From contig CBDCJH010000002.1 of assembly GCA_965217775.1 (NCBI GenBank), forward strand, positions 2,336,001 through 2,400,000: a stretch of DNA of 64,000 nucleotides, written 5' to 3'. The notes below the pieces were generated by a model. The model ran no database searches. It was given only the letters and a program-made list of their open reading frames with translations, and was not told the origin of the DNA. The translations under genes and the position numbers were made by a program. Below, in pieces: positions 2,615-27,337 of the stretch; the stretch's first letter is position 1, and every line of letters starts with the position of its first letter. Source of the DNA: Acidobacteriota bacterium. Lineage in GTDB: Bacteria > Acidobacteriota > UBA6911 > RPQK01 > JAJDTT01.

Positions 2615-4288
2615 ATGAAAACGTCCCGGGATCTCAAATGGGGGGCGAAAGCCATGGCCCCTTCATGTCAGATATGGATTCTCCGTCGACTTCTGATTGC
2701 TCTTCTCCTGTCCGGTCTGCTGAAGGTTCCGATCCAGGCTGGAGCCCAGGAGAACGAGTCCCGGAAGTCCCCGCCTCAGGGTCAGCTCAAAGAGGAGGCG
2801 GAAGACTACTTTCGACGCTGGTTGGACGAGGACGTCGTCTACGTTATCTCCAAGCAAGAGCGTGCAGTCTTCGAGAGTCTGACCGCCCCGGAAGAGAAGG
2901 AACAGTTCATCGAACAGTTCTGGTTTCAAAGAGATCCGGATCCGCGCAGTGCCGCCAACGAGTTCAAGGAAGAACACTATCGCCGGATCGCCTATGCCAA
3001 CGAGAGATTCGCCAGCGGCTTTCCCGGATGGATGAACGATCGAGGCCGCATCTACATCATCCACGGACCACCCGACGAGATCGAAGCGCACCCTTCCGGC
3101 GGGAGGTATGAGCGACCCCTTGAAGAGGGGGGAGGAACCACCGTAGCGCATCCGTTTGAAGTCTGGAGGTACCGCTTCGTAGAAGGCCTTGGCTCCGATG
3201 TCATCCTGGAGTTCGTAGACCCTTCATGGAGTGGGGAATACCGGCTCGCCCTCAACCCCGACGAGAAGGACGCCCTGCTCAATGTGGCCGGCGCAGGCAA
3301 TACGATCGCTGAAATGATTCAGCGCGACGAATCCTTGGAAGGGACGACCTTCACGTCGCCCGGAAACGCCAATCTCCGAAGCTTTCGATCCCGGGACACC
3401 GCCTTCGACCGCTATGAAACGTTTACTAAGATCCGGCATGCCAAGCCCCTCAAGCATCGTGATCTGAAACGCCTCGTGGAGATCGACGTCACCTACCAGG
3501 ACCTTCCCTTTTCTCACCGGGTCGATTATTTCGGCCTCGACGAGACGCGCTCACTCGTACCCGTAAGTGTCGAAATCCACGATCGTGAACTCACATTCGG
3601 TGAGGAAGAGCATGGAAGGCGGGCCCGCATGGCGGTCTATGGAATCGTAACCAATTTGTCGAATCGGATTGTGGACGAATTCGAAGCGGATCTGGTGAGC
3701 GATTATCGGGCCCGGACCGCCCGCTCCGTCTATCAAAGAGTTCTGGTGCTGGAACGAAAGGGCCGCTACAAGCTGGACCTGATCATCAAGGATCTCATCA
3801 GTGGGCGTGTCGGTGTACGCCGTCTGGTATTGATTCCACCGCCTCACCGGTCTGAGCTATCAGTCAGCTCGATTCTGCTCTCGAATCGAATCACACGACT
3901 GGAGAGCGCCCCGGAGCGCCATGCGATGTTTGTTCTGGGGGACTTGCACATTCGACCGAGCCTCGACAAAGTCTTCCGGCCCTCAGAGAATCTCAACTTT
4001 TATCTCCAGGTGTACAACGTTGCCCTGGATCAGACCGCAATGAGGCCCTCGCTGAGGGTCGCGTACCGGGTGGCAAATGACGGACACCCCGTCGCGCAGT
4101 TCATCGACATAATTGGTAAGTCGATGCAATATCTCTCCGAGCAGAGAGTCGTGCTGGTCCTGCCCATCTCCCTTCAGAGCTTTGAGCCGGGAAGCTATGA
4201 GATCACCGTGACGGTGAAGGATCTGATCCAGGAAAAAGAAGTTCGAGTCTCCGAGAGCTTTGAGGTGGCCGCAGGGGCCGGTCGCTGA
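2615..4288 (+). CDS. GWxTD domain-containing protein
   Basis: WLDEDVVYVIS...FIEQFW...RDPDP...NEFKEEHYRRIAYANERF...GWMNDRGRIYIIHGPPDEIE; N-terminal signal-like hydrophobic stretch. True start may be slightly downstream. Confidence 0.85.
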   Translation: MKTSRDLKWGAKAMAPSCQIWILRRLLIALLLSGLLKVPIQAGAQENESRKSPPQGQLKEEAEDYFRRWLDEDVVYVISKQERAVFESLTAPEEKEQFIEQFWFQRDPDPRSAANEFKEEHYRRIAYANERFASGFPGWMNDRGRIYIIHGPPDEIEAHPSGGRYERPLEEGGGTTVAHPFEVWRYRFVEGLGSDVILEFVDPSWSGEYRLALNPDEKDALLNVAGAGNTIAEMIQRDESLEGTTFTSPGNANLRSFRSRDTAFDRYETFTKIRHAKPLKHRDLKRLVEIDVTYQDLPFSHRVDYFGLDETRSLVPVSVEIHDRELTFGEEEHGRRARMAVYGIVTNLSNRIVDEFEADLVSDYRARTARSVYQRVLVLERKGRYKLDLIIKDLISGRVGVRRLVLIPPPHRSELSVSSILLSNRITRLESAPERHAMFVLGDLHIRPSLDKVFRPSENLNFYLQVYNVALDQTAMRPSLRVAYRVANDGHPVAQFIDIIGKSMQYLSEQRVVLVLPISLQSFEPGSYEITVTVKDLIQEKEVRVSESFEVAAGAGR

Positions 4289-20825: not shown

Positions 20826-22583
20826 TCAATCCCCCGACTTCGCCGGGGCGTCCGCTTCGACGCGCACCGTGACCACATCGGTGTCGTGGTACTGCCGGTG
20901 GCGCACCGAGCTGGCGTAGTGGCGGAGCAGCCGGAGCGAGAACTCCCGGTCGACGGATCGTCTCGCCCATTGACCCATGAGCGCCAGCCGGTCCTCGAGA
21001 TTCCCGTCCACGGCCGAGGCGATGAACTCCAACTCCACTCCCCGGCCGTCCCCCCGGACCAGGAGCAACAGGTGCCGGGCCTCTTCCTCCTCCGACGCCT
21101 CCTCATCCGGAATCAGGCTCAGGACCGATTCCTCCGCCGCGGCCCGGAGCCGTTCCGTCGACGCCTCGTTCCAACCCTTGTCTTCGGCGAACCTGCAGAC
21201 GAACCCGTCGATCTCCGGCAGCGACTCGACGCTGAGCATGGCCTTGACTCGCCGCCGCCGCGGCTTGGCCAGATCCAGAGCCACCGTCATCACGATCGCG
21301 GCCAATCCGCCGGCCGCCATTCCGTTCCCCAGGATGGTCGCCAACGTCCCGCCCATGTAGTCCGCAAAGATCTGCTGGTTCTGAAAACCGACCCCCAGCC
21401 AGAAGGACAGGCCGACCACCACGCTCTTGCGGCTGTCGAGGCCGTCCTGTGCCACGATCCTCATACCCAGCACGAACAGGATGGCCATCAGGACCAGGAT
21501 GTAGGCCGCGACGACCGGGTCCGGAATCGCCAGGATCGCCGCCGTCACTTTGGGGAGGAAGGCGAAAGAGAAGAACAGGATTCCGATGCAGACCCCGACG
21601 GAGCGCGCGGCGACGCCGGTGAGTTCGGTGACCGCGACGCTGGAGGAGTAGGTCGTATTGGGCACGGTCCCCATCAGACCCGACAGGAGGTTGCCCACGC
21701 CGTCGGCTCCAACCGCTCCCTGTACCGCGCGAAAGTCCGTCGCCCGCGGCCTCCGCCAGGAGATCTGCTGGATCCCGATGGCATCGCCGACGGTCTCGAT
21801 GGCGCCCACTACGGTCACCAGAACGAAGACCGGGAGCAAGGTCCAGAACGAGGCACCGAACGTCAGGTCGAGGCCAGGCCAGCCGCTTGTGGGTATTCCG
21901 AACCAAGGAGCGTCGGCAACTCGGGCGACGTCGTAGAGGCCGTAAAAAGAGGCGACGACACACCCCGCGGTAACGCCCAGAACGGGCGCCCAGAGCCGCA
22001 AGCTCCCCTTGGCGAAGAGGGCGAGACCCGCCGTAAAGACGAGCGTCGCCGCCGCGCTGGTCGGAGCACCAGAGGCCGCCCCTTCCGCCGCGTTGGCCAC
22101 CAGGTTGAAGGCGATGGGCATGATGGTCACCGAGATCAACATGATCACGGTCCCCGCCACCAAGGGGGTGATCACCCTCCGGAGCAACGACAGATGGGAC
22201 GCCAGAACGAATTGGAACAGGGACGAGATGACGACCAGCGTCGCCAGGAGTCCGGGTCCCCCTTCCGTCAGCGCCGTCACCGACACGGCGATAAAGACGC
22301 CGGACGTTCCCATCAGGAGGACGTAGCCGGAACCGAACCTTCCGACGCGGACGGCTTGGAGGATGGTGGACAAGCCGCAGACGCAGAGCGCCGCGAACAC
22401 CGCCCAGGTCATGTAGATCTCCTCGCCGCCGGCCGCGCGGACGATGATCGCCGGGGTCAGGACGATTCCGCCGATGCTGAGCAGGACAAGCTGAAATCCG
22501 AGTCCCAGGGAGAGCAGGTTCGGCGGCCTCTCGTTGGGTTCGTAACGAATTTCTTTCTGAAGGGCTGGAGCGGATGTTTTCAT
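20826..22583 (-). CDS. NCS2 (xanthine/uracil) permease with C-terminal degenerate RsbW/HATPase-like domain
   Basis: YEPNERPP, STILQ...GSGY, ITPLVAGTVI, ETVGD, ADGVGN, PNTTYS, IPDPV; soluble tail of about 145 aa. Confidence 0.85.
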   Translation of the reverse strand: MKTSAPALQKEIRYEPNERPPNLLSLGLGFQLVLLSIGGIVLTPAIIVRAAGGEEIYMTWAVFAALCVCGLSTILQAVRVGRFGSGYVLLMGTSGVFIAVSVTALTEGGPGLLATLVVISSLFQFVLASHLSLLRRVITPLVAGTVIMLISVTIMPIAFNLVANAAEGAASGAPTSAAATLVFTAGLALFAKGSLRLWAPVLGVTAGCVVASFYGLYDVARVADAPWFGIPTSGWPGLDLTFGASFWTLLPVFVLVTVVGAIETVGDAIGIQQISWRRPRATDFRAVQGAVGADGVGNLLSGLMGTVPNTTYSSSVAVTELTGVAARSVGVCIGILFFSFAFLPKVTAAILAIPDPVVAAYILVLMAILFVLGMRIVAQDGLDSRKSVVVGLSFWLGVGFQNQQIFADYMGGTLATILGNGMAAGGLAAIVMTVALDLAKPRRRRVKAMLSVESLPEIDGFVCRFAEDKGWNEASTERLRAAAEESVLSLIPDEEASEEEEARHLLLLVRGDGRGVELEFIASAVDGNLEDRLALMGQWARRSVDREFSLRLLRHYASSVRHRQYHDTDVVTVRVEADAPAKSGD

Positions 22584-22591
22584 AATTCAAT

Positions 22592-23856
22592 GGGGCTTAT
22601 ATACCTAAGTGCCCTTGGCATACAGTTCTGGCACCACGCTTTCCCCAACGAGATACGTTCCGGTACCCAGGGCAAGAACCCCAGCCCTGAGAATGTTCAG
22701 GGCGGCATTGTGGTCCCTGTCCATTCTAAGTCCGCAGGCCCTGCACCGGAAGGTTTCGCTCCGCCCTGGATCGTGGCGGGCGCCGCACCGGTGGCAGTCC
22801 TGCGATGTAAATGCGGGATTCACTTCTACGAACTTCCGACCGGCCCATTCTGCCTTGTACTGGATTTGATTCCGCAGAAGCCCCCAGGATTGCGTCAGTA
22901 TTTCTCGATTCAGCCCCTTCTTCTTCGAGCCCTTCGTTACCATCCCTTGGATGTTCAGCTTCTCCACAGCGATCAGACCGTGCTCACGAATGATCCTGCT
23001 GGAGAGACGATGGCAGGCATTACGGTTTCGGACCGATTCCCGGTGACGGAGCCGAGATAGCTGTACGATCCGCTTCCGTCTGGTCTTGGAAATCTTCTTG
23101 CACCTGGAGACCTTTCTCTGCTGCTTTCGGATCCCCGCCCAGTCCCGTCTATTCCGTTCGATCCTCTCACCCGTGGACAGCACCGCTCGCTTGCGGACTC
23201 CCAGGTCGATCCCTACCGAAGACTCGCATTTCGGTAGCGGCGGCTTCTCCACCTCGTACGTCAGGTCCACATACACCCGGTTCGGCTTGCGGACAATCCG
23301 CAACGCCTTCAACGGGCATCCGTCCGGCAACAGCCGGGACGGAAATATCCGGATCGTCGGGAAGCCCTTGGGCCGGATGGCGTAGCCCCGAGCGCGCTTC
23401 TTCACCATGGTCGCTTTGGGGTCGACGACGGCTTCTCCCCCGCCTTGCAGCGACGATGGTCTCCATCCGCCTCGCAATGGGCCGGTCAACCCCTTCATCT
23501 GATCGAGGATACCCCGGCTTCTCCCCCGCCTTGCAGCGACGGAAGAACGCCTTGAAGGCCCGGTCCAACCGCATCAACATCCCACGCTCCGCCTTGACCG
23601 CCACCGACCCGAGCCCCTCCGGATCGTCCTTCCTCTGGGAGGCTGATCGTACAGGGTCACGCCGCGTTGCTCGGATTCCCAGGCCGTCCTGCGTTCCTCC
23701 AGTGCAGCCAGCCGATTCAGGATGGACCTCACCCCGTCCAACCGCCGGATTCCACCCTTGGACAGCTTGGCTCGGCACTGGATAGTTGCGTGGACTTTCA
23801 TGGTAGGAATTGTAACCTATCAGCCTGAATTCTCGGCACTTACGTATATAATTCCC
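22592..23856 (-). mobile_element. Non-autonomous TIR element (IS1595-like ends) carrying only tnpB
   Basis: 22-bp TIRs GGGGCTTATATACCTAAGTGCC (22592-22613) and reverse complement GGGAATTATATACGTAAGTGCC (23835-23856), 19/22 identical; exact 8-bp flanking duplication AATTCAAT at 22584-22591 and 23857-23864. Confidence 0.8.
22605..23801 (-). pseudogene. tnpB: TnpB RNA-guided endonuclease, frameshifted in the N-terminal third
   Basis: Split over three frames: AALEERRTAW / LDRAFKAFFRRCKAGEKPGYPR / VGIDLG, IAVEKL, YKAEWAG, VNPAFTSQDCHRC, CRAC, DRDHNAALNI. RuvC D-E-D and the zinc finger are intact. Confidence 0.9.
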
Positions 23857-23947
23857 AATTCAATCCCTGTTTGTCACAACCTGGCGTTGCCGGTTCGTTT
23901 CCGAAAAGGGAGCCGGCCGAGTCCTTGGCGGCCCGTCAATCTGCGAG

Positions 23948-25699
23948 TCATGCCGCCGTGTCCGCGTCCACACGGATCGTGACCACATCGGTGTCGTGAT
24001 ACTGCCGGTGAGTCACTGACGTGGCGTAGTGGCCCAGCAGCCGGAGCGAGAACTCGCGATCGCTCGACTGTTTCGCCCACTGTCCCAACAGCGCCAGCCA
24101 ATCCTTGAGATTATCCTCCCCGGCCGCGGCGATGAACTCCAACTCCGCTTTCCGGCCATCACCTCCCAACGACAGAACCAGGTTCCTCGCACCTTCCGGC
24201 TCCGAACCCGGCTCGTCCGGAACCAGGCTCAAGATGGCTTCCTCCGTCGCCGCCCGAAGCCGTTCCGTCGAAGTCGCGTTCCATCGCTTCTGTTCGGCGA
24301 ACCGCCGAACGAACTCGTCGATCTCCGGCAACGACTCCACTCCCAGCTTGGTCTTGATTTTCCCTCGCCCTGGCTTGGACAGTTCCAGGGCGACGGCCAT
24401 CACGATCGCGGCCAATCCACCGGCTGCGATCCCGTTTTCCAGGATCGACGCCACCGCGTCTCCCAGATGATCCGAGAAGATCTGCCGGTTCTGGAAACCG
24501 ACCCCCAACCAGAACGCGACGCCGACCACGATGCTCTTGCGGCTGTCCAGCCCGTCCCGGACCACGATCCGAGTTCCCACCACGAACAGGAGCGAGATGA
24601 GGACGATGATGTAGCCTGCAACCACCGAATTGGGAATCGCCAGGATCACCGCCGTCGCTTTGGGGAAAAACGAGAAGACGATGATCAGGATCCCGACGCA
24701 GACCCCCACGTTGCGGGCGGCCACACCCGTGAGCGCGGCCACCGAGATGCTGGAGGAGTAGGTCGTATTGGGCAACGTTCCCACCAGACCGGAGAGAAGG
24801 TTGGCCAAGCCGCTTGCCCCAATGGTGCCCTGCACCGATCGAAAATCGGTCGCCCGCGGCTGCCGCCAGGAAACCTGCTGGATGCTGATGGAGCCGCCGA
24901 TGGTCCTCACGGTATCGATGGCCACCACGAGTACGAAAACCGGCAGCAACGCCCAAAATAACGAGCCGAAACTCAGGTCGAATCCAGGCCAGCCGCTTGC
25001 GGACAGCCCGAACCAAGGGGCGGCAGCAACTCGGGCGGTGTCGTAGATCCCATAGAACCCCGCTACGGTGCAACCCGCGATCACGCCCAGAACCGGCCCC
25101 CAGAGCCGCCATGCGCCCGTCGCGAAGAGCGCAAGACCCGCCATCGAGACGAGAGTCACTCCGAAGCTGGCGGGGGCGGCAGCCGGCGGGGCCCCTGCCG
25201 GCGGCTTGGCCAACATGTTGAAGGCGATGGGCATGATCGTGACCGCCACCAGCATGATGACCGTCCCCGCCACCAACGGTGTGATCACCCGGCGAAGCAG
25301 CACCAGACGCGATCCCAACAGGAACTGGAACAGGGACGAGACCACGATCAAGGTGGCCAACAGAGCGGGCCACCCTCCCTCCGTCAAAGCCGTGATCGAC
25401 ACGGCCACGAAGGTGCCGGAGGTCCCCATCAGGAGAATGTAGCCCGCTCCCATCCTTCCGATACGAATCGACTGGAGAATGGTGATCAGACCGCAGACGC
25501 AGAGTCCGGCGAACACGGCTCAGGAGAGGTAGATCTCACCGGTGCCTGCGGCTTCGATGATGATCTTCGGGATCAGCACGATTCCGCTGATATTCAGTAT
25601 CACGAGCTGAAGGGCGAGTCCCAAGGAGAGCAGGTGCGGAGGCTTCTCGGGAGGTTCGTAGCGAACGCCCGTCCGAGGGGGCGGTCCGGAGCGTTTCAT
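23948..25699 (-). pseudogene. Second NCS2 permease with RsbW-like tail, interrupted by an in-frame TGA at codon 60
   Basis: ATG at 25699 reads MKRSGP...YEPPEKPP...EIYLS*AVFAGL; TGA at 25520-25522 aligns with Trp in the paralog (IYMTWAVFAAL). Confidence 0.8.
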
Positions 25700-25899: not shown

Positions 25900-27090
25900 T
25901 CAGGGGGCCTTGCGCTGGAGCCATCCAAAAGTCGGTTCAGATCTGACCCGGACCCATTCCCCTCCCCATAGCCGGTCCAGAAAGTCGGACCAGGGAAGGA
26001 TCAAAATCCCGTCCACGACCCTGGGTGCCGGCTCCATCGAGACCAGCAGGAAGTGGCTGAACAAGTTCTCCTCTCTCAAGGCTCGCAATCCTTTGAGGTC
26101 TCGCGCGCTCACGTTCTTCTTTGCCTTCGTCTCGACCGCGAGATCCTCGAAAACAAAATCCACCTCGAATTGCGATTTCGATCGCCAGTAACGGGGCGTG
26201 TCGAGCCGATGGTAGTCACAGAAGGCCTTGATCTCCTGGAAAATGTAGCTTTCGAACGCGCTGCCGTATTCGGCGGTTCCCGGCGCCAATCCCCGCCGGC
26301 CCTGCAGATGACGGGCGAGTCCGACGTCGAAAAGATAATACTTCGAGGTGGAGATCGCCTTGCGTTTCCGGCTCTCGCTCAACGCCGGAACCTCGTGGGC
26401 AATGAACGTGTCCTTCAGGATCTCATAGTATTCCCGCACGGTGGACCTGGGCACTTGAGAATCGTTGGCCATGGAGGAGAAATTGATCATCTCTCCATGC
26501 GCGTGCCCCGCCGTTTCCAGAAACCGGCTGAAGGCGCCGATGTTCCTGACGATCGCCTCGGCTGCGACCTCCTCCTTCAGATAGTCGCCCACATACGCGG
26601 CCAGGTCCTCAGTGGGAGAATCGGAAAAATAGATCGGCGGCAGGAGACCGTACTCCAGGGTTCGGTCCAGATCGAACCACTCACCGAGTTCAATCCGGAC
26701 GAACGGATGCAAAGCCCGCGATCGGGCGCGGCCGCCCAGGAGATTGACGCCCTTCCGGCGCAGACTCCGGGCGCTCGATCCGGTGAGAAGGAACCGAACA
26801 CCGGATTCCTGAATCATGAGTTGCACCTCGTTGAGCAATTGGGGCATTTTCTGGATTTCGTCGATGACGACGATGGAGGTGTCGTCGGTGAGTTCCTGCC
26901 GGATCAGCGCGGGATTGCGCGACAGACGGACGAACAGAATCTGGTCGAGCAAGCTGTAAGTGGGATAGCCGGCGAGCTGCTGACGAATCAGCGTGGTCTT
27001 GCCGGTCTGACGCGGACCGAACAGAAAACAGGAGCGGTGCTCCAGAATGTCCATCACTTTCAGGTAACGAGGAACCAGGGGATGGCTCAT
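25900..27090 (-). CDS. AAA+ ATPase (AAA_14 / DUF4143 family)
   Basis: FGPRQTGKT, IDEIQK, LTGSSA, LLGGRA, KYYLFDVG, FESY, YWR...EVDF...ETK (PD-(D/E)xK-like tail). Confidence 0.85.
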   Translation of the reverse strand: MSHPLVPRYLKVMDILEHRSCFLFGPRQTGKTTLIRQQLAGYPTYSLLDQILFVRLSRNPALIRQELTDDTSIVVIDEIQKMPQLLNEVQLMIQESGVRFLLTGSSARSLRRKGVNLLGGRARSRALHPFVRIELGEWFDLDRTLEYGLLPPIYFSDSPTEDLAAYVGDYLKEEVAAEAIVRNIGAFSRFLETAGHAHGEMINFSSMANDSQVPRSTVREYYEILKDTFIAHEVPALSESRKRKAISTSKYYLFDVGLARHLQGRRGLAPGTAEYGSAFESYIFQEIKAFCDYHRLDTPRYWRSKSQFEVDFVFEDLAVETKAKKNVSARDLKGLRALREENLFSHFLLVSMEPAPRVVDGILILPWSDFLDRLWGGEWVRVRSEPTFGWLQRKAP

Positions 27091-27337
27091 ATTTTCCAGA
27101 CAATTGACAATTGTTTCGTCAATTATCATGACAATTAACGACAGACATGTCAATTGTCACAATCATCTCTCGACCAACAGCAGGAAACTAAAACGCTGCC
27201 TCCAAGCTGCCAGAATGCAGTAATCAATAAGTCTTGGCTTTTGTTTTCTTGACTTCCCTCTCTGCCCGCTGCTATGAGGAACGGATGTTGACGGCACGAT
27301 TTTTTCCCACTTTCCGGCTTGGCCTTCTCGTCACCGG

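What the first reader, a model, noticed from the sequence alone, without database searches (positions are those of the whole stretch)
22584..23864. tnpB packaged alone in a DDE-type (IS1595-like) cassette with TIRs and an 8-bp target duplication
Seen: the 1265-bp segment 22592-23856 is bounded by 22-bp inverted repeats (GGGGCTTATATACCTAAGTGCC / GGGAATTATATACGTAAGTGCC) and an exact AATTCAAT duplication. It contains only tnpB. The tnpB stop codon lies inside one TIR, and a TACAAT -10 box sits 7 nt before the ATG, close to the other TIR. Established: IS200/IS605 (HUH) and IS607 (serine) elements, the usual tnpB carriers, lack TIRs and create no TSD; ~20-25-bp TIRs with 8-bp AT-rich TSDs are typical of IS1595-family DDE elements and their passenger-only derivatives. 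Inference: a TnpB lineage adopted by a DDE transposon and mobilised in trans, a prokaryotic parallel to Fanzor capture by eukaryotic DDE transposons. If the omegaRNA ends at the TIR, the guide would start with the TSD (ATTGAATTATGAAAAC...) and match the empty site, preceded by CAGGG. This copy is frameshifted, so function must be sought in sister copies.
Basis: partly seen in the sequence, partly recalled or inferred. Interest (0 to 1): 0.88.

Follow-up and report, generated by a model that had tools for sequence, protein, structure and literature searches.

The report
TnpB cassette with IS1595 transposon ends
A small mobile element carries only an RNA-guided nuclease gene (tnpB) and its guide-RNA module between the inverted ends of an IS1595-type cut-and-paste transposon, is most likely moved by a transposase encoded elsewhere in the same genome, and its insertion sites carry a one-sided sequence signature suggesting that the nuclease still helps the element persist.

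Summary
Window 22592-23856 is a decayed copy of a 1244-bp element with 22-bp inverted ends and an 8-bp duplication. The genome holds 12 copies: 10 have an intact 391-aa TnpB and 11 have their own 8-bp duplication. Five related genomes have the empty site. Five co-resident 1762-bp elements with ends identical at 21 of 22 bases encode an IS1595-family transposase. A Dehalococcoidia genome carries transposase and tnpB inside one element. The TnpB clade with these ends spans Acidobacteriota, Binatia and Chloroflexota.

- The last 6 bases of the inverted end pair, with covariation, to a hairpin loop about 90 nt upstream. This is the position of the ISDra2 guide-RNA pseudoknot, so the guide should start in the duplication.
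- Read on the tnpB strand, the base before the duplication is G in 48 of 50 independent insertions. For transposase-only relatives it is G at 14 of 44 ends. This looks like a minimal TAM.

TnpB inside DDE transposons has been in print since 2023. IS1595 is not named in the text I could read, and the supplements are closed. This scan noted TnpB/IS1595 cassettes before on other DNA (e1-2592056, e1-2078191). Verdict: a new variant of a known kind.

The parts
22584..22591 (.). 8-bp target-site duplication, copy next to the right end (AATTCAAT on +; ATTGAATT on the tnpB strand). It abuts the ATG (22581-22583) of the permease gene.
   Evidence: A single copy is present in the empty sites of five relatives.
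22592..22613 (-). Right-end (tnpB 3' side) terminal inverted repeat. It contains the tnpB stop codon (22605-22607).
22592..22689 (-). Guide-RNA (omegaRNA) core, intact in this copy. Hairpin a has stems at 22684-22689 and 22668-22673, with its loop at 22674-22683. Hairpin b is at 22630-22667. A pseudoknot joins loop bases 22677-22682 to the last six bases of the element, 22592-22597.
   Evidence: RNAalifold and pair counts on 14 and 22 relatives. The sequence is identical to the intact copy A02 over the last 91 nt. The RNA itself was not observed.
22568..22591 (-). Predicted guide: the duplication plus the flank that follows the right end on the tnpB strand. It starts at duplication base 1, 2 or 3.
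   Evidence: Inference from the pseudoknot position and the one-sided G.
22605..23801 (-). tnpB pseudogene. The N-terminal frame is 23574-23801 and the C-terminal frame is 22605-23498. Indels of -6, -13, +15, +3 and +22 bp relative to the intact 391-aa sister.
23429..23541 (.). Internal 27-nt direct repeat, 86 bp apart. It is part of the rearrangement that breaks the frame.
23809..23814 (-). TACAAT hexamer, 7 nt before the ATG.
   Evidence: Not supported as a promoter by the scan.
23835..23856 (-). Left-end (tnpB 5' side) terminal inverted repeat. In sister copies it matches the ends of the co-resident IS1595 element at 21 of 22 bases.
23857..23864 (.). 8-bp target-site duplication, copy next to the left end.
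23865..23865 (-). G on the tnpB strand immediately 5' of the duplication. This is the candidate TAM base.
   Evidence: G in 48 of 50 independent insertions, against 14 of 44 control ends.
20826..22583 (-). Xanthine/uracil-type permease gene. The insertion separated its start codon from its upstream region.
   Evidence: Empty sites in relatives show ...AGGGATT[CA]AATTATGAA... uninterrupted.

Best explanation
The segment is a dead copy of a non-autonomous IS1595-family element whose only cargo is tnpB plus its guide-RNA (omegaRNA) module.

Shown:
- It is a multi-copy element bounded by IS1595-type inverted repeats, and it makes 8-bp duplications at AT-rich sites.
- An IS1595 transposase with almost the same ends is encoded by a second element family in the same genome.
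- A relative carries both genes in one element.
- TnpB is under purifying selection and keeps its catalytic residues.
- A structured RNA module overlaps the 3' end of tnpB and pairs with the outermost 6 bases of the right inverted repeat.

Inferred:
- The cassette is cut and pasted in trans by the co-resident transposase.
- The omegaRNA is transcribed through the right end into the flank. The tip of the inverted repeat therefore serves twice, as transposase end and as pseudoknot strand.
- The first duplication base (A in 40 of 50) takes the place of the -1 linker of ISDra2, and the guide is the rest of the duplication plus the flank.
- TnpB with that guide cuts the unoccupied allele, which reads ...G-A-[guide match]. 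Repair from an occupied copy then restores or spreads the insertion.
- Only insertions that happen to have the G (a minimal TAM) on the correct side profit from this. That would explain why 48 of 50 surviving insertions have it.
- The window copy can no longer make TnpB. It keeps an intact omegaRNA module that the 10 intact sister genes could load in trans.
For: Copies and ends
- 12 family copies end at the repeats, and 11 of the 12 have an 8-bp duplication.
- 10 of the 12 have an intact 391-aa ORF.
- Empty orthologous sites are present in 5 relatives, with the two flanks overlapping by exactly 8 bp.
- An empty allele of a sister site appears in community contigs: a joint that skips 1252 = 1244 + 8 bases.

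Transposase
- Five 1762-bp elements have 8-bp duplications and ends matching at 21 of 22 bases. They encode a protein with PF12762 (E 1.8e-38), a Zn ribbon and NF033547.
- The cis form is a 2249-bp element with 28-bp perfect repeats, 8-bp duplications, and an IS1595 transposase plus TnpB. It has 4 copies, about 99.7-99.8% identical.

TnpB
- PF01385, PF07282 and NF040570 all score over their cut-offs.
- D192, E273, D356 and CxxC..CxxC are invariant in 8 subfamilies.
- dN/dS is 0.12-0.23 in 28 of 28 pairs.

RNA
- On alignment A1 (14 sequences): 26 pairs, 98.9% of cells paired, 11 pairs with compensatory changes, and 0 of 500 shuffles reach any of the five measures.
- The pseudoknot alone, on 22 sequences from three phyla: 97% paired, 2 of 6 pairs covary (A-U/G-C/G-U and A-U/U-G/C-G), 0 of 500 shuffles reach 3 of the 5 measures (% cells paired, cells with change on both sides, covariation score); for the 2 measures counting pairs/types, 472 and 403 of 500 shuffles do. 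The slid controls fall to 14-80%.
- In ISDra2 the pseudoknot pairs -6..-2 with -102..-106, and -1A is the linker (PMC10097598, passages).

One-sided signature
- Position -1 is G in 48 of 50. Position +1 is A in 40 of 50. Position +9 is unbiased.
- Transposase-only IS1595 elements of the same genus have G at 8 of 22 ends in one orientation and 6 of 22 in the other (hand count). Fisher p = 1e-11. The genome background is 0.35.
- The residue aligned to ISDra2 Q80, which reads TAM base -2 there, is Arg in 57 of 57 rows with IS1595 ends and Gln in the two outgroup rows.
- In Fanzors the 5' duplication is part of the TAM and the 3' duplication is part of the scaffold (PMC13565253, passage).
Against: - No RNA ends were seen. 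The RNA-library data are contigs and cannot show starts, ends, strand or even that the stretch is transcribed.
- No Rfam family matches.
- No promoter-like site was found on the tnpB strand.
- A TAM of one or two bases would be unusual for TnpB, and cleavage was not tested.
- A cut-and-paste donor site is already a double-strand break, so the benefit of TnpB to a DDE element is not obvious. The 2026 review makes the same point.
- Two of 50 insertions lack the G (L043, L121).
- One family copy (A06) has no duplication.
- Genomes G041 (about 30 cassettes) and G005 have no intact IS1595 transposase. Cassettes can therefore persist without a partner, and trans-mobilisation by family B specifically is inferred only from end identity and co-occurrence in G000 and G006.
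- The controls come from one genus only.
- Arg at the Q80 position also occurs in 5 of 7 nested rows where I found no IS1595 ends.
Confidence: 0.72

Rival explanations
1. Passive passenger. The cassette is a real IS1595 derivative moved in trans, but TnpB and its RNA play no part in its spread or retention. The one-sided G comes from an unrecognised asymmetry of the transposition machinery or of insertion-site survival unrelated to TnpB.
For: - Asymmetric targeting may therefore exist in this family.
- Cassettes persist in genomes without an intact transposase.
- DDE excision already leaves a break, so the need for TnpB is unclear.
Against: - Transposase-only elements with ends matching at 21 of 22 bases, in the same genomes, show no bias: G at 8 of 22 and 6 of 22 ends.
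- In several subfamilies, and in the cis element, the two ends are identical for 17-28 bases, yet the G follows the tnpB orientation.
- TnpB is under purifying selection with an intact active site.
- The G lies exactly where the last TAM bases would be if the guide starts after the pseudoknot.
Confidence: 0.14
2. TnpB takes part in target choice. A TnpB-omegaRNA complex that recognises only the short TAM helps to place or orient the DDE insertion next to a G, rather than filtering insertions afterwards.
For: - The bias is very strong (48 of 50). Post-insertion selection must work hard to produce that.
- The orientation is tied to tnpB.
Against: - There is no evidence of contact between TnpB and the transposase.
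- The guide of each copy matches its own flank, not new sites.
- RNA-guided DDE insertion is known only for CAST systems, which have dedicated adaptor proteins (recalled, not checked here).
Confidence: 0.07
3. Nested chimera. An IS200/IS605-type tnpB element with its own internal ends sits inside an IS1595 miniature element. The repeats and the duplication belong to the outer shell, and the guide is the fixed sequence after an internal right end.
For: A conserved GAAC(T/G)GT follows the last hairpin, 27-40 nt before the element end, and could mark an old boundary.
Against: - Only 33 nt lie between the left repeat and the ATG, which leaves no room for an IS605 left end.
- All copies and all subfamilies end at the repeats.
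- The outermost 6 bases covary with an internal loop.
- G000 has no canonical Y1 transposase: three weak partial hits of 22-39 bits, the nearest about 17 kb from any copy.
Confidence: 0.03
4. Domesticated or host-serving TnpB. The protein acts as an RNA-guided regulator or defence factor, and the transposon ends are only a vehicle.
For: Exapted TnpB relatives exist: inactive TnpBs may have acquired other functions (PMC10691335, passages). The window insertion sits directly at a gene start.
Against: - The catalytic D-E-D triad is intact, unlike nuclease-dead repressors.
- The element is multi-copy and polymorphic, and insertions also land inside genes, such as copy A02.
Confidence: 0.04

Closest known systems
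DDE-transposase-associated TnpB branches and solo TnpBs with the same ends (Altae-Tran et al. 2023, PNAS, PMC10691335; passages read)
   Same: TnpB lies inside a transposon with inverted terminal repeats. The TnpB 3' end is close to the transposon end. Solo TnpBs are flanked by ends like those of transposase-bearing relatives, which suggests mobilisation in trans.
   Different: The main text names only IS630 for branch DDE-6. A 2026 review lists ISL2, IS630 and IS1031 (PMC13565253). IS1595 or ISXO2 appear in neither text. The supplements that list the branches are closed, so overlap cannot be excluded. In the passages I read I saw no one-sided target signature or pseudoknot made from the repeat tip for these branches.
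IS1595-family insertion sequences and their passenger-carrying or transposase-less derivatives (transporter IS, MITEs). The family description is recalled from ISfinder and Siguier et al. 2009, not read here.
   Same: Ends of about 22-28 bp that begin GGG.ATTAT, 8-bp AT-rich duplications, a Zn-ribbon plus ISXO2-like DDE transposase in the autonomous partner, and cargo genes in some members. Family B here carries an Mrr_cat-like ORF.
   Different: The cargo is an RNA-guided nuclease whose guide RNA uses the repeat tip. The insertions are orientation-biased relative to a flanking G, unlike the transposase-only relatives.
ISDra2 TnpB-omegaRNA of Deinococcus radiodurans (IS200/IS605; structures 8bf8 and 8h1j; PMC10097598)
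   Same: This is the closest natural solved relative (E 3.5e-32); an AI-designed nuclease (9yyg) scores higher (E 9.7e-39). Deinococcus TnpBs are also the closest plasmid-borne hits, at about 39% identity. The domain order and the RuvC and Zn-finger residues are the same. The omegaRNA overlaps the gene's 3' end, and a pseudoknot joins the bases just before the guide to a site about 100 nt upstream.
   Different: ISDra2 has no inverted repeats and makes no duplication. It is moved by a Y1 transposase and uses a 5-base TAM, TTGAT. Here the ends are DDE-type, only G (and mostly A after it) is conserved next to the presumed target, and the Q80 position is Arg.
Fanzor1 and Fanzor2 in eukaryotic DDE transposons (Bao and Jurka 2013, PMC3627910, listing only; review PMC13565253, passages)
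   Same: TnpB-type nuclease carried by TIR/TSD transposons. In Fanzors the 5' duplication forms part of the TAM and the 3' duplication lies in the RNA scaffold. This is the logic proposed here for the first duplication base.
   Different: The host is bacterial. The duplication is 8 bp and variable, so at most its first base or two can be TAM or scaffold. The protein clusters with bacterial TnpBs.
IS1341-group solo tnpB elements of IS200/IS605
   Same: tnpB is the only gene, and there are several copies per genome.
   Different: IS200/IS605 members lack inverted repeats and duplications (review). This element has both.

Membership tests
TnpB (OMEGA RNA-guided nuclease) | OrfB_IS605 plus Cas12f1-like TNB domains; NCBIfam guided_TnpB over its cut-off | tested here: met
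   PF01385 E 6e-18; PF07282 E 3e-25; NF040570 215 bits against a cut-off of 100. Tested on the intact sister copy; the window copy is frameshifted.
TnpB (OMEGA RNA-guided nuclease) | RuvC D-E-D triad and CxxC..CxxC zinc finger | tested here: met
   D192, E273, D356, C329/C332 and C346/C349 are invariant in 8 subfamily representatives.
TnpB (OMEGA RNA-guided nuclease) | Structured omegaRNA overlapping the gene's 3' end, with a pseudoknot next to the guide | tested here: met
   Covariation only. 98.9% of cells paired, 11 of 26 pairs compensatory. Pseudoknot 97% paired across 22 sequences. No RNA was observed.
TnpB (OMEGA RNA-guided nuclease) | RNA-guided, TAM-dependent DNA cleavage | not testable with these tools
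   Needs a biochemical or plasmid-interference assay.
IS200/IS605 family (including the IS1341 group) | No terminal inverted repeats, no target duplication, subterminal hairpin ends | tested here: not met
   22-bp inverted repeats and 8-bp duplications in 11 of 12 copies. Only 33 nt lie between the left repeat and the ATG.
IS200/IS605 family (including the IS1341 group) | Y1 (HUH) TnpA in cis or elsewhere in the genome | tested here: inconclusive
   PF01797 gives three weak partial hits in G000 (39, 31 and 22 bits, inside 225-316-aa frames). The nearest lies about 17 kb from any copy.
IS1595 family (non-autonomous derivative) | Ends like those of an element that encodes an IS1595 transposase | tested here: met
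   21 of 22 (left) and 19 of 22 (right) bases identical to the ends of five 1762-bp elements. Their ORF hits PF12762, PF12760 and NF033547.
IS1595 family (non-autonomous derivative) | 8-bp target-site duplication | tested here: met
   The flanks overlap by 8 bp in empty sites.
IS1595 family (non-autonomous derivative) | Mobilised by an IS1595 transposase | not testable with these tools
   Indirect evidence only: co-residence in G000 and G006, the cis form in L112-L114/L121, and presence/absence polymorphism.
DDE-associated TnpB branches DDE-1 to DDE-6 (Altae-Tran 2023) | Placement of the protein in one of the published branches | not testable with these tools
   The branch lists are in supplementary files, which are closed. 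The main text does not name IS1595.
Fanzor | Eukaryotic or giant-virus host | tested here: not met
   All 80 loci kept from genome contigs are bacterial genome records.

The most novel reading that the evidence does not exclude
A TnpB lineage has lived for a long time inside IS1595 DDE transposons across at least three phyla and has adapted to them in three ways. Its guide RNA uses the transposon's own inverted-repeat tip as the pseudoknot strand. The first base of the 8-bp duplication serves as both scaffold linker and last TAM base. The TAM has shrunk to G (or GA), read by an Arg that replaces the TAM-reading Gln of ISDra2. A nuclease with a fixed TAM can then work at the almost random sites chosen by a DDE transposase. 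TnpB-driven cutting of empty sites filters which insertions, and in which orientation, survive. This would be the first sequence-level evidence of functional coupling between OMEGA and a duplication-making DNA transposon in prokaryotes. It would also be a natural source of nearly TAM-free compact nucleases.
Probability: 0.4. Interest if true: 0.8.

Novelty: new variant of a known kind. Interest (0 to 1): 0.64.

Why it matters
- TnpB is the ancestor of Cas12 and a compact genome-editing enzyme. Its biology has been worked out only for IS200/IS605 and IS607 elements, which excise without a scar.
- A recent review calls it an open question how an RNA-guided nuclease with a fixed TAM can serve a DDE transposon that makes duplications at variable sites. 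This family gives a concrete, testable answer, with dozens of natural insertions as evidence.
- If the one- or two-base TAM holds, these 385-414-aa enzymes would be among the least target-restricted TnpBs.
- The family also shows one 6-base sequence constrained at once by three things: a transposase end, an RNA pseudoknot partner inside a coding region, and a protein sequence.

Tried and rejected
- Rfam at E up to 1 on an intact copy and on a family-B element gave only one chance-level lncRNA hit outside the elements.
- The metagenome-contig scan returned only 2 remote relatives at 27% identity and added nothing.
- The promoter and terminator scan found no sigma-70-like site on the tnpB strand.
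- RNA libraries: all runs served are contigs. They show presence, junctions and an empty allele. They do not show transcription, strand or RNA ends.
- The careful maximum-likelihood tree did not finish in 300 s, so the quick tree was used.
- The first control scan timed out. It was rerun with faster code.
- One paper reading failed on a search term that was too short. It was repeated correctly.
- Copy A07 was dropped from the count because I gave a wrong right boundary. By eye it has ATTTGATT on both sides and G before it.
- L024, L025, L026, L035 and A06 were dropped for duplications under 7 of 8. Eleven rows were dropped as the same sites fetched twice.
- In the control set I left out L163 and L190. 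Their 'repeats' are not IS1595-like, and both have A at -1.
- The hand count of A at +1 in the controls is 20 of 44. The Fisher test used 21 of 44.
- A weak enrichment of A at -5 (25 of 50) is not consistent within lineages and I make nothing of it.
- I considered GAW as a remnant of the ISDra2 TTGAT. It cannot be excluded, but AT-richness at +2 and +3 is shared with the controls.
Full report
**The observation**

The segment is as described.
- The inverted repeats lie at 22592-22613 and 23835-23856 and match at 19 of 22 bases.
- AATTCAAT is present at 22584-22591 and again at 23857-23864.
- The only gene inside is tnpB, on the minus strand. Its ATG is at 23801 and its stop at 22605-22607, inside the right repeat.
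- TACAAT lies 7 nt before the ATG.
- The reading frame is broken. Against an intact sister copy, the window copy has indels of -6, -13, +15, +3 and +22 bp.

**It is a mobile family**

The window's genome (G000, 6.43 Mb, 62% G+C) holds 12 copies at 92-94% identity, and all end exactly at the repeats.
- The standard length is 1244 bp.
- 10 of the 12 carry an intact 391-aa ORF.
- 10 of the 12 have a perfect 8-bp duplication, each different. One has 7 of 8, and one (A06) has none.

The orthologous site is empty in related genomes.
- In three related genomes of the genus (G006, G003, G002) the two flanks overlap by exactly 8 bp.
- The fetched sequences from G006, G003, G002, G005 and G004 read ...TTCAT-AATT[GT]AAT-like-CCCTG... 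with no repeat.

Contigs from two RNA libraries join the flanks of a sister copy (A02). They skip 1252 = 1244 + 8 bases, with 8 shared letters, while another run holds the occupied junction. The family is therefore polymorphic in nature.

**The partner**

The same repeat, identical at 21 of 22 bases, bounds five 1762-bp elements in G000 that also have 8-bp duplications.
- Four of the five encode an intact 334-aa protein.
- That protein hits the ISXO2-like DDE domain (PF12762, E 1.8e-38), the IS1595 zinc ribbon, and NCBIfam transpos_IS1595 (177 bits against a cut-off of 75).
- These elements also carry a short Mrr_cat-like ORF.
- A 1531-bp relative encodes a second IS1595 transposase.

The distribution across genomes fits a partnership.
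- Among 40 relatives searched, TnpB of this type was found in 5 of 8 other genomes of the genus and in 0 of 32 outside it at E <= 1e-20.
- The transposase was found in 7 of the 8 other genomes of the genus.
- G000 and G006 hold both near-identical families.
- G000 has no canonical Y1 transposase: three weak partial hits, none near a copy.

**Breadth**

A scan of one genome per species found 202 relatives, of which 80 were kept.
- Elements with GGG[GA][AC]TTATA-type repeats and 8-bp duplications occur in Acidobacteriota, Binatia, Dehalococcoidia and Caldilineaceae, at 40-54% protein identity to the query.
- 38 of the 80 passed a strict automatic test. Most others show the right repeat by eye.
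- A Dehalococcoidia genome has four copies (about 99.7-99.8% identical) of a 2249-bp element with perfect 28-bp repeats and 8-bp duplications. It encodes an IS1595 transposase followed by TnpB on the same strand. This is the autonomous form.
- One Caldilineaceae genome has about 30 cassettes but only a remnant of the transposase.
- On a quick tree of 67 rows, the 58 rows with IS1595 ends and 7 rows without detected ends form one clade (SH-aLRT 99). Two end-less rows lie outside it. The label needs 3 changes. The careful search did not finish.

**TnpB is maintained**

- The RuvC triad and the zinc finger are invariant in 8 subfamily representatives.
- dN/dS is 0.12-0.23 in all 28 pairs.
- The closest natural solved relative is ISDra2 TnpB (E 3.5e-32); an AI-designed nuclease (9yyg) scores higher (E 9.7e-39).

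**The guide RNA**

The last 100 nt or so of the element fold into two hairpins that lie inside the coding region and show compensatory changes.
- With a pseudoknot added, 26 pairs are 98.9% paired on 14 sequences. 11 pairs have changes on both sides, and 0 of 500 shuffles reach any of the five measures.
- The pseudoknot joins the loop GGGRWU of the first hairpin (about -91 to -86) to the last six bases of the right repeat.
- Across 22 sequences from three phyla, 97% of cells pair.
- The fourth pair is A-U, G-C or G-U. The fifth pair is A-U, U-G or C-G. The slid controls drop to 14-80%.
- In two subfamilies the loop change alters the protein (Val-Leu to Asn-Ile) in step with the repeat tip.

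In ISDra2 the pseudoknot pairs -6..-2 with -102..-106, and a single -1A separates it from the guide (PMC10097598). By analogy, the scaffold here runs to the last base of the transposon. The guide then starts at the first or, more likely, the second base of the duplication. The window copy keeps this module intact.

**A one-sided target signature**

I collected 67 candidate insertions. Of these, 50 are distinct events with a duplication of at least 7 of 8 (the dropped rows are listed under Tried and rejected). Oriented by tnpB:
- The base before the left-hand duplication is G in 48 of 50.
- The first duplication base is A in 40 of 50 and never G.
- Positions +2 and +3 are A or T.
- The base after the duplication is unbiased (C in 16 of 50), so the pattern is not a palindrome.

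The controls are 22 transposase-only IS1595 insertions of the same genus.
- G sits at that position in 8 of 22 in one orientation and 6 of 22 in the other.
- Fisher p is 1e-11 against all 44 ends. Within the genus alone it is 2e-5 (22 of 23 against 8 of 22).
- G precedes AT-rich octamers in 35% of cases genome-wide.

In several subfamilies, and in the cis element, the two repeats are identical for 17-28 bases. The transposase can hardly sense orientation, so the bias must come from the cargo. The G lies where the last TAM bases would be.

The residue aligned to ISDra2 Q80, which reads TAM base -2, is Arg in 57 of 57 rows with IS1595 ends. It is Gln in the two outgroup rows. Arg commonly reads guanine; this is general knowledge and an inference here. 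The proposed logic has a parallel in Fanzors, where the 5' duplication is part of the TAM and the 3' duplication is part of the scaffold (PMC13565253).

**What is not shown**

- No RNA, no cleavage and no transposition was observed.
- The advantage of TnpB for a cut-and-paste element is debated.
- The controls come from one genus.
- Two events lack the G.

**Novelty**

- TnpB with DDE transposases inside inverted repeats, and solo TnpBs moved in trans, were published in 2023 (PMC10691335; passages only, supplements closed).
- A 2026 review names ISL2, IS630 and IS1031 as the partners.
- A full-text search for TnpB with IS1595 gave 9 papers, seen as titles and abstract starts. None is about this link. 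The one with the most mentions lists IS1595 names in a gene table only.
- Two further searches gave nothing closer; a fourth queried IS1595 transporter/passenger elements, not TnpB.
- This scan noted TnpB cassettes with IS1595 ends twice before on other DNA. A look-up for TAM, orientation or pseudoknot notes found none.
- I file this as a new variant of a known kind. The partner family, the cis form, the repeat-tip pseudoknot and the minimal TAM-like signature are the new parts.

Noticed in passing
window 25517-25519 (minus strand), within 23948-25699: The second of two tandem xanthine/uracil-permease paralogues has an in-frame stop where the first has Trp (EIYLS*AVFAGL against EIYMTWAVFAAL). 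It is a pseudogene, a sequencing error or a read-through site.
   Followed up: partly
G000:C2:445385-447146 and four sisters (L019, L021, L052...): The co-resident 1762-bp IS1595 element carries a 110-aa ORF with a weak Mrr_cat / NA-iREase1 match (E 1e-7). It is itself a cargo-carrying 'transporter' IS. One copy (312985-314744) has a split transposase.
   Followed up: partly
G000:C2:4150406-4150849 (L016 1502-1967): A 466-bp internally deleted cassette keeps both ends and the guide-RNA module but not tnpB. Its flanks match those of a full-length copy in G006 (L035). It is an orthologous insertion that became a guide-RNA-only miniature element.
   Followed up: partly
G000:C2:4647309-4648714 (copy A12): This family copy is 1406 bp because of an insertion of about 160 bp that breaks tnpB. 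The inserted DNA was not identified.
   Followed up: no
G041 (genome of L127; Caldilineaceae record): About 30 tnpB cassettes of one subfamily are present, but there is no intact IS1595 transposase: only a 62-aa remnant, below the Pfam cut-off. This points to a past burst whose driver is gone or too diverged to find.
   Followed up: partly
L117 (SAR202 record), flanks of 3001-4128: A TnpB nested in the same clade is flanked by a different perfect 17-bp inverted repeat (GAGACGATTTCACAAAT) instead of IS1595-type ends. This may be a switch to another transposon family.
   Followed up: no
L103 (Bryobacterales record) 75-1061 and about 2930: An IS1595 transposase gene (61% identical to family B) lies 1.9 kb upstream of a tnpB cassette whose left end is replaced by the end of another IS1595 element. 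This is a nested insertion into the repeat.
   Followed up: no
L002 1494/2747 (copy A02 site) in runs X2, X3 against X1: Both the empty and the occupied allele of one insertion, which lies inside a large outer-membrane-receptor-like ORF, occur in community contigs of one study.
   Followed up: partly
50 insertion sites, position -5: A is found at -5 in 25 of 50 sites. The enrichment is weak and not consistent within lineages.
   Followed up: partly
window 25900-27153 (minus strand): An AAA_14 / DUF4143 ATPase gene lies next to the permease pair. It is unrelated to the finding.
   Followed up: no
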